From a virus: a DNA stretch of 34,123 bases. The notes beneath the pieces were generated by a model. That model was not told the origin of the DNA, made no database searches, and saw only the letters and a list, made by a program, of their open reading frames with translations. The translations under genes and the position numbers were made by a program. The stretch is from the UHGV virus genome UHGV-1338014. The stretch is one strand, 5' to 3'. The stretch's first letter is position 1; the number at the start of each line of letters is the position of its first letter. This document shows, piece after piece, positions 48 to 34,123 of this stretch.

Positions 48-52
48 GCCGC
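48..52. repeat. Left copy of 5-bp target-site duplication (GCCGC)
   Basis: GCCGC directly abuts the TG of the left terminus and is repeated after the right-end CA at 34052..34056; Mu transposition is known to make 5-bp duplications. Confidence 0.85.
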
Positions 53-916: not shown

Positions 917-1101
917 TTAAAATCCTAGTGATTTCAATAGAGATAAAATAAATTCATATAAAAATCATACCGTTATGCAAAATTGCGGCAAATCCTATCA
1001 AATCACTATTGATTTGAAAGTGATTCCACACTACATTGCACGATATGCCGTGAGCTACTTTATAGCGTAGCTCACGGGGGAATCTGAAAGGATTACATGA
1101 A
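917..1101. promoter_or_regulatory. Divergent early control region (operators, early and repressor promoters, probable transposition enhancer)
   Basis: AT-rich spacer between divergent c and ner; repeated TGATTTCAA / TGATTTGAAAGTGATT motifs and a perfect inverted repeat at 1048..1077. The operator/enhancer role is by position, from Mu biology. Confidence 0.6.
1048..1077. promoter_or_regulatory. Perfect 11-bp inverted repeat CCGTGAGCTAC-N8-GTAGCTCACGG, candidate Ner operator (D108 type)
   Basis: Seen directly in the sequence just upstream of the ner start. I recall the D108 Ner site being described as 11-bp inverted repeats with an 8-bp AT-rich spacer, but this is from memory. Confidence 0.55.
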
Positions 1102-7160: not shown

Positions 7161-7689
7161 ATTAATTCATGTCGCCCGGCGTGATCTACAACTCGACGAT
7201 GACACTTACCGCGCCTTTCTGGTGCAGTTCACGGGCAAAACCAGTTGCCGCGAGCTGACCGTCGCACAACTGGAACAGGTGCTCGATGCCATGAAAGAGC
7301 GCGGTTTTAAGAAGCAGAAAAAACATCCCCGCCGTCGCTTTAAGGGGCATGTCACACCGCGTGAGAAGATTTATAAAATCTGGCAGCAGATGTTTCAGGA
7401 TGGCTTTGTCGCTGATGGCAGTGATGCTGCGCTGGACAAATACGTTGCACGCCTGACGGCCAGACGTAATGGCGGTCAGGGTGTTTCCACGCTGGCCTGG
7501 TGTCACGGGGAATCGTTGCATGTTGTGCTCGAAACGCTCAAACAGTGGCATATGCGCTGCATCCGGGACGCCTTTGCCCGACATGGTGTGCCTTTACCTG
7601 TGAGCGAAACCGGGCGGGAGCTGCGCGGCTATGATGCACTGACCAGTGCGTATGCCCGCGCACGAAACAGCGGGAGAATTGCTGTATGA
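7138..7689 (+). CDS. gemA: GemA-like early protein (183 aa)
   Basis: Length matches Mu GemA and it sits immediately upstream of the Mor/C-family gene with start/stop overlap. Confidence 0.75.
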   Translation: MSRTSLIKLIHVARRDLQLDDDTYRAFLVQFTGKTSCRELTVAQLEQVLDAMKERGFKKQKKHPRRRFKGHVTPREKIYKIWQQMFQDGFVADGSDAALDKYVARLTARRNGGQGVSTLAWCHGESLHVVLETLKQWHMRCIRDAFARHGVPLPVSETGRELRGYDALTSAYARARNSGRIAV

Positions 7690-8096
7690 AACAGATGAAA
7701 GAGCAGGATTTATTCGAAGACTTCCGGGACGACAGTGTTCTGGAATATCTTCACGATTATCAGGAAAAATATGTTTACCCGGCGCTACTTTCAGAGCTGA
7801 ATGCTCTGCTGCGACAGGAACTGATAAGGCTTGGTGTTAACCCTGCCCACTCTCTTGAGCTGGTAGTGGCAATTTGCAATCATATCGGAGGGATTCAGGT
7901 ATATGTTCCGAAAGGGAAAATACTGGAAAATCTGATCAGAGACATGCGCATCTGGCGTGATTTTGATGGAAAAAACGTAGCAGAGTTGGTGCAGCGTTAC
8001 AAAGTGACCTACAAAACGGTATATCAGGCCATCAAAAGAATGCGAAGGCTGGAGCGTGGAAAATATCAAATGCAACTATTTAAGGATGAGCCATGA
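7686..8096 (+). CDS. mor: Mor/C-family transcriptional activator (136 aa)
   Basis: C-terminal region (HSLELVVAICNHIGGIQVYVPKG...NVAELVQRYKVTYKTVYQAIKRMRR) fits the Mor/C activator family; called mor rather than C because it directly follows gemA. Confidence 0.7.
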   Translation: MKQMKEQDLFEDFRDDSVLEYLHDYQEKYVYPALLSELNALLRQELIRLGVNPAHSLELVVAICNHIGGIQVYVPKGKILENLIRDMRIWRDFDGKNVAELVQRYKVTYKTVYQAIKRMRRLERGKYQMQLFKDEP

Positions 8097-8593: not shown

Positions 8594-8616
8594 AGCCGGT
8601 AAATCCGGCTTTTTTT
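8594..8616 (+). terminator. Rho-independent terminator (AGCCGG-TAAAT-CCGGCT plus T7)
   Basis: GC stem, 5-nt loop and a run of seven T directly after the stop of the 8093..8572 ORF; an identical copy lies at 16155..16177. Confidence 0.75.
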
Positions 8617-16012: not shown

Positions 16013-16226
16013 CCCTCCCGCCGTAAATCCCCCTGAAATGCATCAGAAACGCGTTTTTTATTCTGATGGCATGAATGTGCATTCTGACGTTTTTGAAGGC
16101 GCTGTGGCGTTTTTGAAGGGGTTTTGAAGGGGGTATTCTTCCCGTTTTCAGTGAAGCCGGTAAATCCGGCTTTTTTTCTGCCTTCCGCATACTGACCGTC
16201 AGTAACCCCAAACGACGGAGACTGAC
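16013..16226. promoter_or_regulatory. Central non-coding spacer: inverted repeat, three tandem (T)TTTGAAGG repeats, terminator, then late promoter region for gene I; candidate strong gyrase site
   Basis: No ORF; IR CATCAGAA-N12-TTCTGATG at 16041..16068; CGTTTTTGAAGG / CGTTTTTGAAGG / GTTTTGAAGG between about 16091 and 16134; terminator at 16155..16177. The gyrase-site idea rests only on position near the genome centre. Confidence 0.45.
16155..16177 (+). terminator. Rho-independent terminator, identical copy of the 8594..8616 hairpin
   Basis: Same AGCCGGTAAATCCGGCTTTTTTT sequence, downstream of F and upstream of I. Confidence 0.75.
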
Positions 16227-18091: not shown

Positions 18092-18117
18092 CCCGTCATC
18101 CGTAATCTGTAACCCGC

Positions 18118-18149
18118 AGTTAAAAGGCGCTATGAATGCCCTTTTAACT
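18118..18149 (+). terminator. Stem-loop downstream of major capsid gene (AGTTAAAAGG...CCTTTTAACT)
   Basis: 10-bp inverted repeat about 27 nt after the T stop, followed by TTTTAAAA; possible attenuator or mRNA-stabilising hairpin. Confidence 0.4.
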
Positions 18150-18169
18150 GCCTTTTAAAAGGCAGAGTC

Positions 18170-22076: not shown

Positions 22077-22472
22077 ATGGCCGCAATGGAATTTGAACTG
22101 AAACACGGGCTTCTGACCGGCAAAGGCACGGCAGATGAAACCCTGCATAAAACCGTGAAACTGCGCGAACTGACCGCCAGTGACGTGATTGATGCGCAAC
22201 TGGCCGCAGAACGCGTCGTCATGGGCGGGAACGGAAAGGCGGTGGCTTACTGCTCGGAAGTGCTGATGGGGCTGGAGATGATGCGCCGTCAGGTTGCGTC
22301 AATCGGTAATATCCCCGGCCCGCTGGACATGAAACAGCTGCGAATGCTCCACCCGGCAGACCTTGAACTTATCAGCACGAAAGCCGCTGCGCTGGATGAA
22401 ATGCTTGAGGAGGTGGCAACGCGGGGGCGAACTGATGCCGCTGGCGGCGGCACTGATGAACCTGCTGGTTAA
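22077..22472 (+). CDS. Tail assembly chaperone, Mu gp41 / P2 gpE-like (131 aa)
   Basis: Position between tube and tape measure; an overlapping ORF in another frame (22363..22572) suggests a possible frameshift extension. Confidence 0.65.
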   Translation: MAAMEFELKHGLLTGKGTADETLHKTVKLRELTASDVIDAQLAAERVVMGGNGKAVAYCSEVLMGLEMMRRQVASIGNIPGPLDMKQLRMLHPADLELISTKAAALDEMLEEVATRGRTDAAGGGTDEPAG

Positions 22473-22558
22473 CCTGTCTTCGCGATTCAGCATTCAGTAC
22501 CTGGAACAGCTGCCCCTGCGGCAGCTGTTCCGCCTGATAAAGCAACTGGAGAAACAGC

Positions 22559-24415: not shown

Positions 24416-25689
24416 TGACAACAAGCAAAGGCAAATGGGACGGGCTGCGCGACGCCTCGTTTCGCGGTGTCCCTTTTTTTCTGGTGGATACGGAAGGCAC
24501 AGGTGGCCGTCGTGCCATTCCCCGTGCTTATCCCCGGCGTGAAACCGCCTGGACGGATGATAACGGGGCCGTTCCGGGGCAACAGCAGATTAACGCGAAG
24601 CTGTTGGGTAGCAACTTCCAGGCTGATTTAAACGCCCTTTTAGATGCGCTCAATACCCCCGGCCCCGGCGAGCTTATCCATCCGTGGTTCGGGATACAGA
24701 CCGTACAGGTTGGCAAGGTCACCCATCGCCTCAGCACGGAGGAAGACGGCATTGCGTATGTCACATTTGAAGTGTTTGAGGCAGGCGAGCGTCTGTTCCC
24801 GTCTGCGGCGGATAACACGCAGCAGGAAGTGCTGACGGGCATTGATGCGGTAAAAGCGGCCATTGACGATGGCAACTGGTTCGGTGCACCTGACGGGCTG
24901 GGTGAGATGGCCGACAGCTTTCTGGCCGATATGGAAAACCTTGTGGCCAACCTGCCCACGTTACCGACGGCACTGAATCAGTGGATGGACAGGCTGAACC
25001 ATTTTAAGGAGATGGCCGGAACCATTATTGCCACGCCGGGTCGTCTGGTCAGTGAGCTGTCCTTGCTCATTGACGGCGTGGTTGATCTGGTGACGGAATC
25101 ACCCGAAGCACTGGCGGTTTACACGACATTACGCAACCAGTGGGCCGGAGAACGCGCCCGACAGGTTGCCACTGGCGCACTGCCGGAAGATATCACCGTG
25201 AAGCCCGGCAGCGTGGCAGACGGTGAAATCGGCTTTGCCATCGGGCTGTCAGCGGATTATCAGCCGGTATCTGACAGCCTGCAGAAGAACATTGACGACT
25301 TCCGCCAGGTGGTTGTGCTGGAAACCCTGCTGGGACAGGCCAGTGCCGTGGCCTCGATGACGTTCGATACCAGTGATGCGGCATTATCTGCCGGTGACGC
25401 GCTGGCGGCTGAACTGCATGAGCAGTCGGTCGCGGCGGTGGAAAATAACCAGCGGGCATTGTGGCGAACGCTGCGTGATTTACGGCAGGCCGTGATTACG
25501 GATGCCCGCGAGCGTGCCGCCCGTCTGCCGGAAACCCGGCAGGTGACGCTGACCACAACCACATCTGCCGCATTGCTGGCATGGCGCGAGCATGGTGACA
25601 CCAGCCGACGGGATGAAATCGTGCAGCGTAACCGCCTGCGCCATCCGTCATTCATACTGCCAACGCAACCTGTGGAGATTACCGACTGA
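24415..25689 (+). CDS. N: DNA circularisation protein N-like tail protein (424 aa)
   Basis: Position immediately after tape measure, as Mu N. Confidence 0.7.
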   Translation: MTTSKGKWDGLRDASFRGVPFFLVDTEGTGGRRAIPRAYPRRETAWTDDNGAVPGQQQINAKLLGSNFQADLNALLDALNTPGPGELIHPWFGIQTVQVGKVTHRLSTEEDGIAYVTFEVFEAGERLFPSAADNTQQEVLTGIDAVKAAIDDGNWFGAPDGLGEMADSFLADMENLVANLPTLPTALNQWMDRLNHFKEMAGTIIATPGRLVSELSLLIDGVVDLVTESPEALAVYTTLRNQWAGERARQVATGALPEDITVKPGSVADGEIGFAIGLSADYQPVSDSLQKNIDDFRQVVVLETLLGQASAVASMTFDTSDAALSAGDALAAELHEQSVAAVENNQRALWRTLRDLRQAVITDARERAARLPETRQVTLTTTTSAALLAWREHGDTSRRDEIVQRNRLRHPSFILPTQPVEITD

Positions 25690-31960: not shown

Positions 31961-32506
31961 ATGCTTCATTTAAAAAATATTACTGCGGGTAATCCGAAAA
32001 CGGCAGAGCAATATCAGATGACAAAGCGGCATAGTATTGTCTGGCTTTTTTCGGAAGATGGCAAAAACTGGTATGAAGAACAGAAGAATTTTGCCAGCGA
32101 CACCATAAAAGCAGCCTATAACGACAGCGGGCGCGTGGTGTGGGTCGGTAAGGATGTGACAGGTATCGAACCCACTAACGTCAGTATCATTGAACTCCCG
32201 GATATTACTGCTAACCGCCGCATCACCGTACCGGGATACTGGTTTTACCGCAATGATGAATTTGTTTTTGATTACAAATTAAAAGCAGAAGACGAGCGTG
32301 ATACCCTGTTACAACAGACCAGCATCATGACCAGCGAATGGGAAAAAGACCTGCTGTTGGGATTAATCAGCGACGAAGACAGGGAAAAGCTGAAAGCGTA
32401 CCGTATTTACGCAAAGGCGTTGCAGGCGATGGATTTAAGCACCATCACCGATAAAACCACATATAACGCCATTAACTGGCCGGAGCGTCCCGATGCCGCA
32501 GCTTAA
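31961..32506 (+). CDS. Tail fibre assembly chaperone (Tfa / Mu U-like, 181 aa)
   Basis: Typical Tfa size and position immediately 3' of the fibre gene. Confidence 0.75.
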   Translation: MLHLKNITAGNPKTAEQYQMTKRHSIVWLFSEDGKNWYEEQKNFASDTIKAAYNDSGRVVWVGKDVTGIEPTNVSIIELPDITANRRITVPGYWFYRNDEFVFDYKLKAEDERDTLLQQTSIMTSEWEKDLLLGLISDEDREKLKAYRIYAKALQAMDLSTITDKTTYNAINWPERPDAAA

Positions 32507-32963
32507 AGGTGTGATTAAAACGCCCACAGGAGAACCGCTGGGCGGCACAACCATCACGCTGACCTCCCTGCACAACCGTGCAGGGATTCTGAAAGGTGTT
32601 TTCAGCCACGTCACTACACAGAGCGGGGAGTACGACTTCCCCGTTCTGCCGGGCGTGTACAGTGTTCGCCTGACACAGAGCGCACAGCGCCTTTCAGAAA
32701 TCGGCATCATTCGCGTTTATGAAGATTCACAGGACGGTTCGCTTAACGATTTTTTGTCGGTGACAGATGCAGATTTGCGCCCTGAATCTCTTAAAAAGTT
32801 CGAAGAGATTGCAATGCAGATACAAAAAAGTGCGGAAAGTGTCAGATTATATGCAGAGGAGGTGAAACGGGATTGCGCAATTACCCTCGAAAACAGAAAA
32901 CAGACAGAGAGACTGCTGTCCCTGATAGCAGAGCCTCTTTCTCAGAGTGCCGCAGAAAGCTGA
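32493..32963 (+). CDS. Stand-alone prophage tail-fibre N-terminal domain protein (156 aa), likely remnant of a second fibre gene
   Basis: IRVYEDSQDGSLNDFLSVTDADLRPE matches the hallmark motif of the lambda-type side-tail-fibre N-terminal domain; the ORF stops after about 156 aa with no fibre shaft. Confidence 0.6.
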   Translation: MPQLKGVIKTPTGEPLGGTTITLTSLHNRAGILKGVFSHVTTQSGEYDFPVLPGVYSVRLTQSAQRLSEIGIIRVYEDSQDGSLNDFLSVTDADLRPESLKKFEEIAMQIQKSAESVRLYAEEVKRDCAITLENRKQTERLLSLIAEPLSQSAAES

Positions 32964-33003
32964 CTCAAAAAAGGTTAATAATTAAGCGTTTTGTATAGAT
33001 TAT

Positions 33004-33100
33004 GACGATCGATACCATCATATCGATCGTCGTTTTACATCATGTGTGGTTAAATATCCCCAGCCCTCCGGGTGGTCGTATCTGGTTATTACACAGGGGG
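33004..33100 (+). promoter_or_regulatory. com-mom regulatory region with a perfect 11-bp palindrome carrying two GATC sites
   Basis: GACGATCGATA-N6-TATCGATCGTC at 33004..33031 (GATC at 33007..33010 and 33025..33028), followed by the promoter region and the com RBS. Mu mom is known to be controlled by Dam methylation upstream of its promoter. Confidence 0.6.
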
Positions 33101-33104
33101 AATC

Positions 33105-33290
33105 ATGGACTCTGTTCGCTGTAAAAACTGCAATAAGTTACTGTTTAAAGGAGGTTTTAAGCATATAGAAATTAAATGCCCTCGCTGTAAACGTTACATT
33201 GTCATATCGAATGCCAAAGAGCATCCCACGGAGCTGTATTGTGGGAAAAGAGAAGAAATCACGCATTCTGACAAAACCCTGCGTTATTGA
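33105..33290 (+). CDS. com: Com, zinc-finger translational activator of mom (61 aa)
   Basis: CKNC...CPRC zinc-finger motif; small ORF overlapping the 5' end of mom; AGGGGG RBS before ATG 33105. Confidence 0.85.
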
Positions 33291-33936
33291 GTATGAAGGC
33301 CGGATTGTCGGCTATGGTTCAAAGGAGTTGCGCGTTGAAACCATATCCTGCTGGCTGGCCCGCACAATCATTCAGACAAAGCATTATTCCCGCCGTTTTG
33401 TGAATAACTCCTACCTGCATCTGGGCGTATTCAGCGGACGTGATCTGGTTGGCGTTCTTCAGTGGGGATATGCCCTTAATCCCAACTCAGGGCGTCGTGT
33501 CGTGCTTGAAACAGATAACCGGGGTTACATGGAACTGAACCGCATGTGGTTACACGACGACATGCCCCGCAATTCTGAATCACGGGCCATCAGCTACGCG
33601 CTGAAAACCATCAGGTTACTGTATCCGTCAGTGGAGTGGGTTCAGTCCTTTGCAGACGAACGCTGCGGGCGTGCTGGCGTGGTATATCAGGCGTCGAATT
33701 TTGATTTTATTGGTAGCCATGAAAGCACATTCTACGAACTGGACGGCGAGTGGTATCACGAGATAGCGATGAACGCGATTAAGCGCGGAGGTCAACGAGG
33801 CGAGTATTTGCGGGCTAATAAGGAACGGGCAGTGGTACACAAATTTAATCAATATCGCTACATCAGGTTCCTGAACAAGCGCGCAAGAAAACGCCTAAAC
33901 ACCAAACTATTCAGGGTTCAGCCATACCCGAAGTGA
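33199..33936 (+). CDS. mom: Mom DNA-modification protein (anti-restriction adenine modification)
   Basis: Last gene before the right end, overlapping com. The frame is open from 33199, but the real start may be the internal GTG at 33241, which would give 231 aa. Confidence 0.85.
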
Positions 33937-33957
33937 CCCCACGTTATGAATAAAAAA

Positions 33958-33984
33958 ACAGCGGTTAATGCCGCTGTTTCGTTT
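33958..33984 (+). terminator. Terminator-like hairpin after mom (ACAGCGG-TTAATG-CCGCTGT, A-run upstream and T-rich downstream)
   Basis: 7-bp GC-rich stem about 22 nt after the mom stop, flanked by A7 and TTTCGTTT. Confidence 0.6.
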
Positions 33985-34051
33985 GAAGCACGAAAATTAA
34001 AGTTTTCGCATTTATCGTGAAACGTTTTCGCGTTTTTCGTGCGCCGCTTCA
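33975..34051 (+). promoter_or_regulatory. Right end (attR) with putative transposase-binding sites R1-R3
   Basis: CGAAA-containing repeats (TTCGTGCTTCAAAC complement, TTTCGCATTTATCGTGAAACG, TTTCGCGTTTTTCGTGCGCCGCTTCA) terminating in ...CA at 34051. Confidence 0.7.
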
Positions 34052-34056
34052 GCCGC
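34052..34056. repeat. Right copy of 5-bp target-site duplication (GCCGC)
   Basis: Identical pentamer to 48..52, immediately after the terminal ...CTTCA. Confidence 0.85.
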
Positions 34057-34123
34057 TGTTCATATTTACTCATTAAGATCGCTTCACTAAACCATAATTT
34101 TACAGGGGCTATTATGCGGAAAC

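What the first reader, a model, noticed from the sequence alone, without database searches (positions are those of the whole stretch)
33004..33936. com-mom DNA-modification module with a GATC-bearing perfect palindrome upstream
Mom is known to modify adenine to protect phage DNA from many restriction systems, and its expression in Mu is controlled by Dam methylation of upstream GATC sites, by the late activator and by Com-dependent translation. Here two GATC sites are embedded in a perfect 11-bp palindrome (GACGATCGATA-N6-TATCGATCGTC) upstream of com. This is a compact epigenetic switch worth comparing with Mu, where I recall the GATC sites being arranged differently.
Basis: partly seen in the sequence, partly recalled or inferred. 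Interest (0 to 1): 0.5.

Follow-up and report, generated by a model that had tools for sequence, protein, structure and literature searches.

The report
Mu-type mom switch, two-GATC variant
This is the well-known com-mom DNA-modification operon of a Mu-like prophage in E. coli. Its GATC palindrome is the same methylation-sensitive OxyR operator that phage Mu has, here in a tidier version with two GATC sites instead of three, so it is a modest variant and not a new kind of switch.

Summary
**Observation: confirmed.**
- GACGATCGATA-N6-TATCGATCGTC lies at 33004-33031 and carries GATC at 33007 and 33025.
- com is 33105-33290.
- mom runs from GTG 33241 to 33936 and is 226/231 aa identical to Mu Mom.

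**Interpretation: partly supported.**
- The two GATCs are not arranged differently from Mu. They are the positional homologues of Mu GATC1 and GATC2: same 18-bp spacing, same ACGATCGA...ATCGATCG cores, same ATAG 12 bp upstream, and the same 29 bp to the C-box-like motif.
- The palindrome is the centre of a 46-bp two-fold-symmetric site (32995-33040). It reads as two OxyR half-sites 31 bp apart, which is within 1 bp of the spacing reported for reduced OxyR.
- The real differences from Mu are three. Mu's third GATC is CATC here. The arms are perfectly symmetric. The phage has no C activator gene and no gin, and the promoter-proximal region is not Mu-like.

**Comparative evidence.** The same layout (GATC, 18-19 bp, GATC, 13 bp, then GATC or a degenerate site) recurs upstream of com-mom in other Enterobacterales and in E. 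coli agn43. Different lineages keep different subsets of the GATC sites.

**Still open.** OxyR binding, Dam dependence, the promoter and the activator are inferred, not shown.

**Verdict:** new variant of a known kind, low to moderate interest.

The parts
32995..33040 (.). 46-bp two-fold-symmetric operator, the homologue of Mu mom 'region I' and the putative site for reduced OxyR. Half-site A is 32995-33009 (ATAGATTATGACGAT). Half-site B is 33026-33040 (ATCGTCGTTTTACAT).
   Evidence: Ungapped identity to Mu L001 1370-1415 is 31/46, and self-symmetry is 32/46. Against ATAGxTxxxAxCTAT, half-site A scores 8/10 and B scores 5/10, with starts 31 bp apart. At that offset the site ties for a place among the five best of 34,078 positions in the window.
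33004..33031 (.). Perfect palindrome GACGATCGATA-CCATCA-TATCGATCGTC, forming the centre of the operator. It contains two PvuI sites and two ClaI sites.
   Evidence: The arms are invariant and the spacer is variable in relatives.
33007..33010 (.). GATC1, a Dam site in the inner element of half-site A.
   Evidence: It aligns with Mu GATC1.
33025..33028 (.). GATC2, a Dam site in the inner element of half-site B.
   Evidence: It aligns with Mu GATC2 and has the same 18-bp spacing from GATC1.
33038..33041 (.). CATC at the position of Mu GATC3 (GATC2 + 13). The third Dam site has been lost.
   Evidence: All window-type relatives have CATC here.
33052..33066 (+). C-box-like motif AAATATCCCCAGCCC. The activator is unidentified.
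   Evidence: It resembles Mu PI GCATAACCCCAGAT and Mu PP CCATAACCCCGGAC. It lies 29 bp from GATC2, the same distance as in Mu. The function is inferred.
33063..33073 (.). G+C-rich dyad, GCCC-TCC-GGGT here and GCCC-N3-GGGC in relatives. It is a possible activator site.
   Evidence: Conserved, with a variable centre, in window-type relatives. Function unknown.
33079..33084 (+). Candidate -10 hexamer TATCTG (TATCCT in some relatives). A start near 33091 is inferred from it.
   Evidence: It lies 25 bp after the ATAT of the box, against 28 bp in all four Mu late promoters. This is inference only. The sigma-70 scan found no rightward promoter here.
33105..33290 (+). com: a zinc-ribbon translational activator of 61 aa, with CxxC...CxxC retained.
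33211..33224 (+). Com-target hairpin AUGC-CAAAGA-GCAU in the mom mRNA.
   Evidence: The stem is invariant in 9 lineages and the loop varies.
33225..33245 (+). Translation-inhibition hairpin CCCAC...GUGGG, which encloses the mom Shine-Dalgarno GGAG (33230-33233) and the GUG start (33241).
33241..33936 (+). mom: a Gly-tRNA-dependent adenine N6-carbamoylmethyl modification enzyme of 231 aa. It overlaps com by 50 nt, as in Mu.
   Evidence: Enzymology is from PMC13219725.
33955..33980 (.). Hairpin after mom, ACAGCGG-TTAAT-GCCGCTGT, a likely terminator.
34031..34051 (.). Mu-type right end. It is followed by the 5-bp target duplication GCCGC at 34052-34056, matching GCCGC at 48-52.

Best explanation
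The palindrome is the core of a Dam-methylation-sensitive OxyR operator upstream of the com-mom promoter of a Mu-like prophage (window 53-34051). It is homologous to 'region I' of the Mu mom promoter.

**Proposed mechanism.**
1. Reduced OxyR tetramer binds two half-sites 31 bp apart: ATAGATTATGACGAT at 32995-33009 and ATCGTCGTTTTACAT at 33026-33040. The inner recognition elements of these half-sites are the two GATC-containing arms.
2. When GATC1 and GATC2 are unmethylated, and possibly when hemimethylated, OxyR occupies the site and prevents activation of the promoter about 50 bp downstream.
3. Full Dam methylation of both sites excludes OxyR and permits transcription late in lytic growth.
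4. The transcript encodes Com. Com binds the AUGC...GCAU hairpin and opens the adjacent hairpin that hides the mom Shine-Dalgarno and GUG start.
5. Mom then modifies adenines in phage DNA.

**Shown here:** the sequence homology, the geometry, the conservation, and the identity of the genes.

**Inferred:** OxyR binding, methylation sensitivity, the promoter position, and the activator. The activator cannot be Mu C, which is absent. The single Mor-family protein at 7686-8096 is the only candidate seen.
For: **Homology to the Mu operator.**
- Alignment with Mu and D108 places the two GATCs on Mu GATC1 and GATC2, and the upstream TATAG on Mu's TATAG.
- The 46-bp operators are 31/46 identical without gaps. 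GATC2 lies 29 bp from the ATAA/ATAT-CCCC box in both.

**Fit to the OxyR model.**
- The OxyR dimer consensus ATAGxTxxxAxCTAT comes from PMC2909390. Half-site A scores 8/10 and is one of only five half-sites scoring 8/10 or more in 34 kb.
- Half-site centres 32 bp apart are described as canonical for reduced OxyR in opvAB, where half-sites of 7/10 and 8/10 are functional (PMC4856963).

**The same layout elsewhere.** It occurs in E. coli agn43 (ATAGAATAAAACGAT, then ATCGTTTATATCGAT; GATC spacing 19 and 13). It also occurs upstream of com-mom in Scandinavium, Apirhabdus, an uncultured Enterobacteriaceae genome and many IMG/VR contigs.

**GATCs fall on recognition elements.** Lineages differ in which of the four OxyR recognition elements carry a GATC:
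- Mu: inner A, inner B, outer B.
- This window: inner A, inner B.
- L058, L109, L141: outer A, inner B, outer B.
- L110 group: inner B, outer B.
- In L016 the outer-B element is the canonical CTAT, giving a 9/10 half-site.

**Selection and host.**
- The arms are invariant and the spacer variable across window-type copies.
- The non-GATC positions are 6-10 of 15 symmetric in every lineage, against about 3.75 expected.
- The host flank matches 5413 of 5426 E. coli genomes, and E. coli has Dam and OxyR (established knowledge).
- Mom is under strong purifying selection: 51 of 60 nucleotide differences from Mu fall at third codon positions.
- The Com target and the start-hiding hairpin are conserved.
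Against: - Half-site B matches the OxyR consensus at only 5/10. This is weaker than Mu's 7/10 and weaker than any half-site shown to work in the papers read.
- The consensus is loose, and four other positions in the window score as well at the same offset.
- Only two Dam sites remain, so methylation may exclude OxyR less effectively than in Mu.
- The extra symmetry of the five bases inside the 16-bp gap (CGATA / TATCG) is not explained by the OxyR consensus.
- No rightward sigma-70-like promoter is detected. The candidate -10 lies 25 bp after the box, not the 28 bp of all four Mu late promoters.
- No C gene is present.
- No binding or expression data exist for this variant.
- The Mu OxyR footprint coordinates I rely on (about -104 to -46; Sun & Hattman 1996) are recalled from memory. 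I could not read them here.
Confidence: 0.72

Rival explanations
1. The palindrome acts as RNA. It would be a stem-loop, an intrinsic terminator or attenuator, that ends the upstream tail-fibre operon or insulates com-mom from read-through.
For: As RNA it folds into a 13-bp hairpin of -17.6 kcal/mol (z = -3.6) followed by GUUUUA. There is no other terminator between the stop codon at 32963 and com.
Against: - The T-tract is only 4 nt long and is GGTTTG in most window-type relatives. The terminator scan does not report it.
- In Mu the homologous dyad is imperfect and overlaps the 3' end of the gin ORF.
- Other lineages keep the dyad with no T-run at all.
- What is conserved across lineages is the GATC and ATAG/CTAT element spacing, not stem stability.
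Confidence: 0.08
2. The symmetric site is bound by a different dimeric protein and not by OxyR. Candidates are the phage's single Mor-family activator, another phage or host regulator, or SeqA on hemimethylated GATCs. The resemblance to OxyR sites would then be incidental.
For: - The perfect symmetry extends into bases the OxyR consensus does not specify.
- Half-site B is weak.
- The phage lacks C, so its regulatory wiring differs from Mu.
Against: - The phage's own Mor-box-like sites (GAAGCCGGTAAATCCGGCTT at 8595 and 16156) look nothing like the palindrome.
- The site is positionally homologous to the Mu region known to bind OxyR, and it resembles agn43.
- The ATAG at -12 from GATC1 is explained only by the OxyR half-site.
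Confidence: 0.12
3. The palindrome is an inactive relic or a chance feature, and mom in this lineage is no longer controlled by Dam.
For: One GATC has already been lost, and the Mu-type promoter and activator are gone.
Against: - The arms are invariant while the neighbouring spacer and flanks vary in about 17 distinct copies.
- Symmetry is maintained across lineages whose arm sequences differ.
- GATC is otherwise depleted in the phage.
- mom and com are intact and under purifying selection.
Confidence: 0.05

Closest known systems
Bacteriophage Mu / D108 mom operon control region (Pmom region I, com, mom)
   Same: - Gene order is the same, with a 50-nt com/mom overlap and a GUG start for mom.
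- The Com-target hairpin and the hairpin hiding the mom start are present.
- Mom is 226/231 identical.
- The operator has the same length and position: ATAG-N8-GATC-N14-GATC, with GATC2 29 bp from the ATAA/ATAT-CCCC box.
   Different: - The third GATC is CATC.
- The arms are an 11-bp perfect palindrome, against an imperfect dyad in Mu (self-symmetry 32/46 against 26/46).
- The segment between the box and the com ATG is 11 bp shorter and lacks the T6 run and TAAGAT.
- There is no C gene and no gin or G segment in the phage. The upstream neighbour is a truncated tail-fibre ORF.
- Com is only 73% identical.
E. coli agn43 (flu) Dam/OxyR phase-variation switch
   Same: Two OxyR half-sites lie about 31-32 bp apart with GATCs in the recognition elements. 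The identical 10-mer TATCGATCGT occurs in both. Dam and OxyR compete for overlapping DNA (PMC13337833).
   Different: - agn43 has three GATCs, spaced 19 and 13 bp.
- Its operator lies downstream of or over the promoter of a host gene, and the switch is heritable ON/OFF.
- Here the site is upstream of an activator-dependent phage promoter. Phase variation has never been tested even for Mu (PMC2909390).
Salmonella gtr (P22) and opvAB OxyR/Dam switches
   Same: GATCs are embedded at the ends of OxyR half-sites, and a GATC pair 13 bp apart corresponds to one half-site. GATC-to-CATC changes are used experimentally because they remove methylation without touching the OxyR consensus, which is exactly the natural change seen here at 33038.
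   Different: Those systems have three or four half-sites and alternative OxyR occupancy that gives ON and OFF states. Only two half-sites are recognisable here.

Membership tests
Mom adenine-modification enzyme (Pfam PF25680; Mu gp Mom) | Full-length match to the Mom profile and close identity to the characterised Mu enzyme | tested here: met
   254 bits, covering profile positions 1-202 of 202. Identity to Mu Mom is 226/231. The five substitutions (positions 21, 123, 176, 188, 225) avoid every invariant column of an 8-sequence alignment.
Mom adenine-modification enzyme (Pfam PF25680; Mu gp Mom) | Gly-tRNA(Gly)-dependent formation of N6-carbamoylmethyl-adenine in duplex DNA | not testable with these tools
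   The activity was established for Mu Mom in PMC13219725. It is inferred here from 98% identity.
Com zinc-ribbon translational activator (PF10122) | Profile match and four zinc-binding cysteines (CxxC...CxxC) | tested here: met
   30.5 bits against a cutoff of 22.9. PHROG gpCom E=4e-43. Cysteines are at positions 6, 9, 25 and 28.
Com zinc-ribbon translational activator (PF10122) | com overlaps mom, and the mRNA carries the Com-target hairpin next to a hairpin hiding the mom SD and start | tested here: met
   The overlap is 50 nt. The hairpins at 33211-33224 and 33225-33245 are predicted, and their stems are invariant in 9 lineages. Because they are invariant there is no covariation, so structural support comes from conservation only.
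Dam/OxyR-controlled operator (Mu mom region I, agn43 type) | Two or more GATC sites inside the OxyR-bound region upstream of the promoter | tested here: met
   GATC at 33007 and 33025, homologous to Mu GATC1 and GATC2.
Dam/OxyR-controlled operator (Mu mom region I, agn43 type) | Two OxyR half-sites (ATAGxTxxxAxCTAT) spaced for the reduced tetramer (about 32 bp centre to centre) | tested here: inconclusive
   Half-site A scores 8/10 and B only 5/10, with a spacing of 31 bp. Mu scores 7/10 and 7/10 at the same spacing. The reference spacing comes from PMC4856963.
Dam/OxyR-controlled operator (Mu mom region I, agn43 type) | Three GATC sites, as in Mu and agn43 | tested here: not met
   The third position reads CATC (33038) in the window and in all window-type relatives. 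Other lineages also carry only two GATCs, so three is not universal.
Dam/OxyR-controlled operator (Mu mom region I, agn43 type) | OxyR binds unmethylated DNA but not fully methylated DNA, and expression requires Dam unless oxyR is deleted | not testable with these tools
   This needs EMSA or footprinting and reporter assays.
Mu C-dependent late promoter (Plys, PI, PP, Pmom) | C-box ccATAAcCCC upstream of the -35 position | tested here: met
   ATATCCCCAG at 33054 against Mu PI ATAACCCCAG, a 9/10 match, at the Mu distance from the operator.
Mu C-dependent late promoter (Plys, PI, PP, Pmom) | -10 hexamer starting 28 bp after the ATAA of the box | tested here: not met
   All four Mu promoters have TAxxxT or CAAACT at +28. 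The window has CTGGTT there. The best candidate, TATCTG, is at +25.
Mu C-dependent late promoter (Plys, PI, PP, Pmom) | The phage encodes the C activator | tested here: not met
   tblastn with Mu C hits only the Mor-like gene at 7686-8096, at 32% identity. That gene is 60% identical to Mor. It is the only Pfam Mor-family protein among the nine ORFs scanned between 7686 and 12152. The same is true of the related STEC383 prophage.

The most novel reading that the evidence does not exclude
In a lineage of Mu-like prophages that has lost C and gin, the mom operon has been rewired. It keeps a streamlined, fully symmetric two-GATC OxyR operator, but is driven by a different promoter and activator. 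The activator would be the single Mor-family protein or an unknown factor that recognises AATAYCCCCRGCCC and the GCCC-N3-GGGC dyad. With only two Dam sites and a weak distal half-site, the balance between OxyR and Dam could differ from Mu. One possible outcome is a heritable ON/OFF (phase-variable) state of mom in lysogens, which would modify host DNA in a subpopulation.
Probability: 0.15. Interest if true: 0.45.

Novelty: new variant of a known kind. Interest (0 to 1): 0.25.

Why it matters
Mom makes phage DNA resistant to many restriction enzymes, and it is toxic if made at the wrong time. Its control in Mu is therefore a textbook case of layered regulation by Dam, OxyR, C and Com.

This window shows which parts of that control are kept when the phage backbone changes:
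- the OxyR/Dam operator geometry;
- the distance from the operator to the activator box;
- the Com RNA switch.

It also shows which parts are replaceable:
- the third GATC;
- the core promoter;
- the C activator.

Across lineages the GATC sites move among the four OxyR recognition elements. That gives a simple rule for recognising Dam/OxyR switches in sequence data. None of this changes the known mechanism. It refines it and supplies natural variants for testing how many GATC sites the switch needs.

Tried and rejected
- **Phage-isolate search.** A 'distant' BLAST of 32900-33130 against 50,697 phage records found nothing. The upstream region has no close match among the phage records searched. 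The homology to Mu appears only in a directed alignment.
- **NCBIfam.** No hits for Com, Mom or the neighbouring ORFs.
- **Rfam.** At E<=1 on 32800-34123 the only hit was a meaningless miRNA match. No curated RNA family covers the Com target.
- **Species-representative genomes.** The scan with Mom returned only 4 loci. An alignment-based IMG/VR scan was needed to get diversity.
- **Primary papers.** I tried to read the OxyR-mom papers (PMC401183, PMC147061) and the agn43 GATC-number paper (PMC2838033). None is held, so the footprint coordinates are from memory.
- **Oxidised-OxyR register.** With half-sites 22 bp apart the site scores 12/20, worse than the 31-bp register at 13/20. The 22-bp register is therefore not preferred.
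- **Mor-type promoter upstream of com.** The Mor-box geometry (dyad centre, then a -10 hexamer 25 bp later, as at 8595 and 16156) does not fit the com upstream region. Rejected.
- **Rightward sigma-70 promoter.** The scan found none. It found only a leftward promoter-like match (TCGATA-16-CATAAT, 33026 to 32999), and one match is no more than chance predicts.
- **Covariation in the mom mRNA hairpins.** The stems are invariant, so this test is uninformative.
Full report
**1. The observation**

The repeat finder reports a single inverted repeat in 32900-33200. Its arms are 33004-33014 and 33021-33031, 11 nt each, 100% complementary, 6 nt apart (GACGATCGATA / TATCGATCGTC). Each arm contains one GATC, at 33007 and 33025.

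Perfect inverted repeats of this size are rare by chance. Mononucleotide shuffles of the window give a mean of 0.16, against 6 observed. GATC is strongly depleted in the window, with 51 found against 123 +/- 10 expected.

**2. What the window is**

blastn against phage Mu shows a complete Mu-like prophage. The Mu left end lies at about 53 and the right end at 34051. The early region is 85-92% identical to Mu. The late region is recognisable only in patches. com-mom and the right end are 88% identical.

The element is flanked by a 5-bp direct repeat, GCCGC, at 48-52 and 34052-34056. That is the signature of Mu-type transposition.

The host flank matches 5413 of 5426 complete E. coli genomes. 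Twenty-three genomes carry this prophage end at 99.5-99.8% identity, at different chromosomal positions.

**3. The genes**

- com is 33105-33290 (61 aa). It matches Pfam Zn_ribbon_Com above threshold and PHROG 'gpCom' at E=4e-43. It is 45/62 identical to Mu Com and keeps both CxxC pairs.
- mom starts at GTG 33241, the codon homologous to the Mu start, and ends at 33936 (231 aa). It covers the whole Pfam Mom profile at 254 bits and is 226/231 identical to Mu Mom.
- Of the 60 nucleotide differences from Mu mom, 51 fall at third codon positions, which means strong purifying selection.
- com and mom overlap by 50 nt, as in Mu.
- Mu Mom was recently shown to be a GNAT-fold enzyme that uses Gly-tRNA(Gly) to build N6-carbamoylmethyl-adenine on duplex DNA (PMC13219725).

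**4. Translational control**

The mom mRNA segment folds as in Mu. A small AUGC-N6-GCAU hairpin (33211-33224) is followed directly by CCCAC...GUGGG (33225-45). That second hairpin encloses the GGAG Shine-Dalgarno and the GUG start.

In nine diverged lineages both stems are invariant while the loops vary. Invariance gives no covariation, so the support is conservation only. That Com binds here is established for Mu (my knowledge of Wulczyn & Kahmann and of Hattman). It is inferred for this copy.

**5.

MAFFT aligns the palindrome with Mu GATC1 and GATC2:
- window: TATAGATTATGACGATCGATACCATCATATCGATCGTCG
- Mu: TATAGAAAACGACGATCGAATCAATTAAATCGATCGGTA

The shared features are these:
- Both GATC pairs are 18 bp apart. 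For Mu, a published PvuI digest of Pmom that releases an 18-bp fragment confirms this independently (PMC3378877).
- Both pairs are preceded by ATAG 12 bp upstream of GATC1.
- In both, GATC2 lies exactly 29 bp from the ATAA/ATAT-CCCC box.
- The 46-bp segments are 31/46 identical without gaps.

What does differ:
- Mu's third GATC (GATC2 + 13) reads CATC at 33038.
- The symmetry is better: 32/46 self-complementary positions against 26/46 in Mu.
- Everything from the box to the com ATG is unlike Mu and is 11 bp shorter (51 bp against 62 bp).

**6. Why this is read as an OxyR operator**

The OxyR dimer consensus is ATAGxTxxxAxCTAT (PMC2909390).
- Half-site A (32995-33009, ATAGATTATGACGAT) scores 8/10. 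It is one of only five half-sites scoring 8/10 or more in the 34-kb window.
- Half-site B (33026-33040, ATCGTCGTTTTACAT) scores 5/10.
- Their starts are 31 bp apart. In opvAB, half-sites centred 32 bp apart are called canonical for reduced OxyR, and half-sites of 7/10 and 8/10 are functional (PMC4856963).
- Mu scores 7/10 and 7/10 at the same 31-bp spacing.
- E. coli agn43, fetched from K-12, scores 8/10 and 8/10 at 32 bp. It shares the 10-mer TATCGATCGT with the window.

A and B are mirror images about 33017.5, which is the centre of the palindrome. The palindrome therefore consists of the two inner recognition elements (CGAT and ATCG, standing for CTAT and ATAG) plus their flanks.

As I recall it, the reduced-OxyR footprint on Mu Pmom spans about -104 to -46 (Sun & Hattman 1996). 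That would cover exactly the Mu counterpart of 32995-33040. I could not read that paper here.

**7. Comparative evidence**

Forty-nine E. coli genomes carry the window-type upstream region. Twenty-three are identical or nearly so, and 27 records are 82-90% identical.

Across these copies and the IMG/VR copies, the 10-11-bp arms are unchanged while three of the six spacer positions vary and the flanks vary.

Among close Mom relatives in IMG/VR, 23 loci are Mu-type (GATC spacing 18 and 13) and 17 are window-type (spacing 18 only).

More distant com-mom loci keep the same scaffold:

| Locus | GATC spacing | Note |
|---|---|---|
| L016, Scandinavium | 18 | outer-B element is the canonical CTAT (half-site 9/10) |
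| L017 | 18, 13 | |
| L018 Apirhabdus, L063, L107 | 19, 13 | |
| L058, L109, L141 | 31, 13 | a GATC sits in outer A |
| L110 group | 13 only | GATC1 position reads TATC |

The GATCs therefore always fall on OxyR recognition elements, and lineages differ only in which elements are methylatable.

The positions flanking the GATC1/GATC2 pair are 6-10 of 15 symmetric in every lineage, against about 3.75 expected. This holds even where the arm sequences differ, for example CACCGATCGAT / ATCGATCGGTG and GTCGATCA / TGATCGAC. Taken together, this argues for a dimeric or tetrameric DNA-binding protein and against both chance and an RNA stem.

**8. Promoter and activator (unresolved)**

- The box AAATATCCCCAGCCC (33052-33066) resembles the Mu C-boxes of PI and PP. 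It sits at the Mu distance from the operator.
- The prophage has no C orthologue and no gin. tblastn with Mu C finds only the gene at 7686-8096, which is 60% identical to Mor and 32% identical to C. It is the only Pfam Mor-family protein among the nine ORFs scanned between 7686 and 12152. A related window-type prophage in strain STEC383 is organised in the same way.
- That protein's likely sites are Mor-box-like dyads (GAAGCCGGTAAATCCGGCTT followed by a T7 run) at 8595 and 16156, upstream of the lysis and head genes. They do not resemble the com upstream region.
- All four Mu late promoters have their -10 hexamer 28 bp after the ATAA of the box. The window has CTGGTT there. The best candidate is TATCTG at 33079-33084, 25 bp after the box, and it reads TATCCT in some relatives. 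It would put the transcript start near 33091.
- The sigma-70 scan finds no rightward promoter.

I therefore treat the promoter position and the activator as open.

**9. Rival explanations**

- **RNA terminator.** The hairpin is stable at -17.6 kcal/mol. But the T-tract is short and not conserved, and in Mu the homologous dyad overlaps the 3' end of gin.
- **Another binding protein.** This cannot be excluded, because the inner five symmetric bases and the weak half-site B are not explained by the OxyR consensus. However, the upstream ATAG, the 31-bp spacing, the homology to Mu and the similarity to agn43 all point to OxyR.
- **A relic.** This is contradicted by the invariance of the arms.

**10. 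Verdict**

The com-mom module is an ordinary, intact member of a known family. The palindrome is the known Mu-type Dam/OxyR operator in a more symmetric, two-GATC form. It sits in a C-less, gin-less Mu-like prophage lineage that is common in E. coli genomes and found no match among the phage-isolate records searched.

It is a new variant of a known kind. It would serve as a natural experiment on how many GATC sites the switch needs and on how mom is activated without C. It is not surprising to a specialist.

Noticed in passing
window 48-52 and 34052-34056; prophage 53-34051: The 34.0-kb Mu-like prophage is flanked by a perfect 5-bp target-site duplication, GCCGC. It looks like an intact transposition product.
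   Followed up: yes
window 7686-8096 (Mor-like gene); 8595-8613 and 16156-16174: The phage has one Mor/C-family activator and no C or gin. Two identical Mor-box / terminator-like elements (GAAGCCGGTAAATCCGGCTT followed by a T7 run) precede the lysis and head genes. Each has a -10-like hexamer 25 bp after the dyad centre, as at Mu Pm. A third dyad, CTGCCGGAAACCCGGCAG, lies at 25527.
   Followed up: partly
window 22307-22320, 24651-24664, 33052-33066: The motif AATAYCCCCRGCCC occurs three times on the + strand. The a-priori pattern ATAWCCCC occurs 5 times against 1.15 expected. Two copies lie inside ORFs in the same reading frame (N-I/T-P-G-P) and the third is upstream of com. It is unclear whether these are activator boxes.
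   Followed up: partly
window 32493-32963: This 156-aa ORF is only the N-terminal tail-fibre domain (PF08400). Relatives have a tail-fibre protein several times longer (about 470 to 1,040 aa where the full gene is recorded), usually followed by a DUF4376 gene, at this place. The window therefore seems to carry a deletion ending just upstream of the operator, and similarity to relatives resumes at about 32973.
   Followed up: partly
whole window: GATC is under-represented about 2.4-fold (51 found against 123 expected; every one of 100 shuffles had more).
   Followed up: no
window 33023-33040 against Mu L001 1370-1387: The reverse complement of the right half of the window operator (ATGTAAAACGACGATCGA) is 16/18 identical to the left half of the Mu operator (ATAGAAAACGACGATCGA). 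This is closer than the window's own left half, at 15/18. It may reflect an inverted duplication or gene conversion that created the perfect palindrome.
   Followed up: partly
RefSeq annotations of identical copies: PGAP names Com a 'DNA-binding transcriptional regulator', although Mu Com is an RNA-binding translational activator. PGAP also starts mom at various upstream codons, giving 726-738 nt. The Mu-homologous start is GTG 33241, giving 696 nt.
   Followed up: no
window 33026 to 32999, minus strand: The only sigma-70-like match near the operator points leftward (TCGATA-16-CATAAT) and lies within the operator. It recalls Mu's divergent momP2. One match is no more than chance predicts (1 found against 2.0 expected).
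   Followed up: no
window 1048-1077, 18116-18151, 22503-22531: Three other perfect 11-12-bp inverted repeats are present. One lies in the early operator region. The other two lie in intergenic gaps after the major head gene and before the tape-measure gene, and are likely terminators.
   Followed up: no
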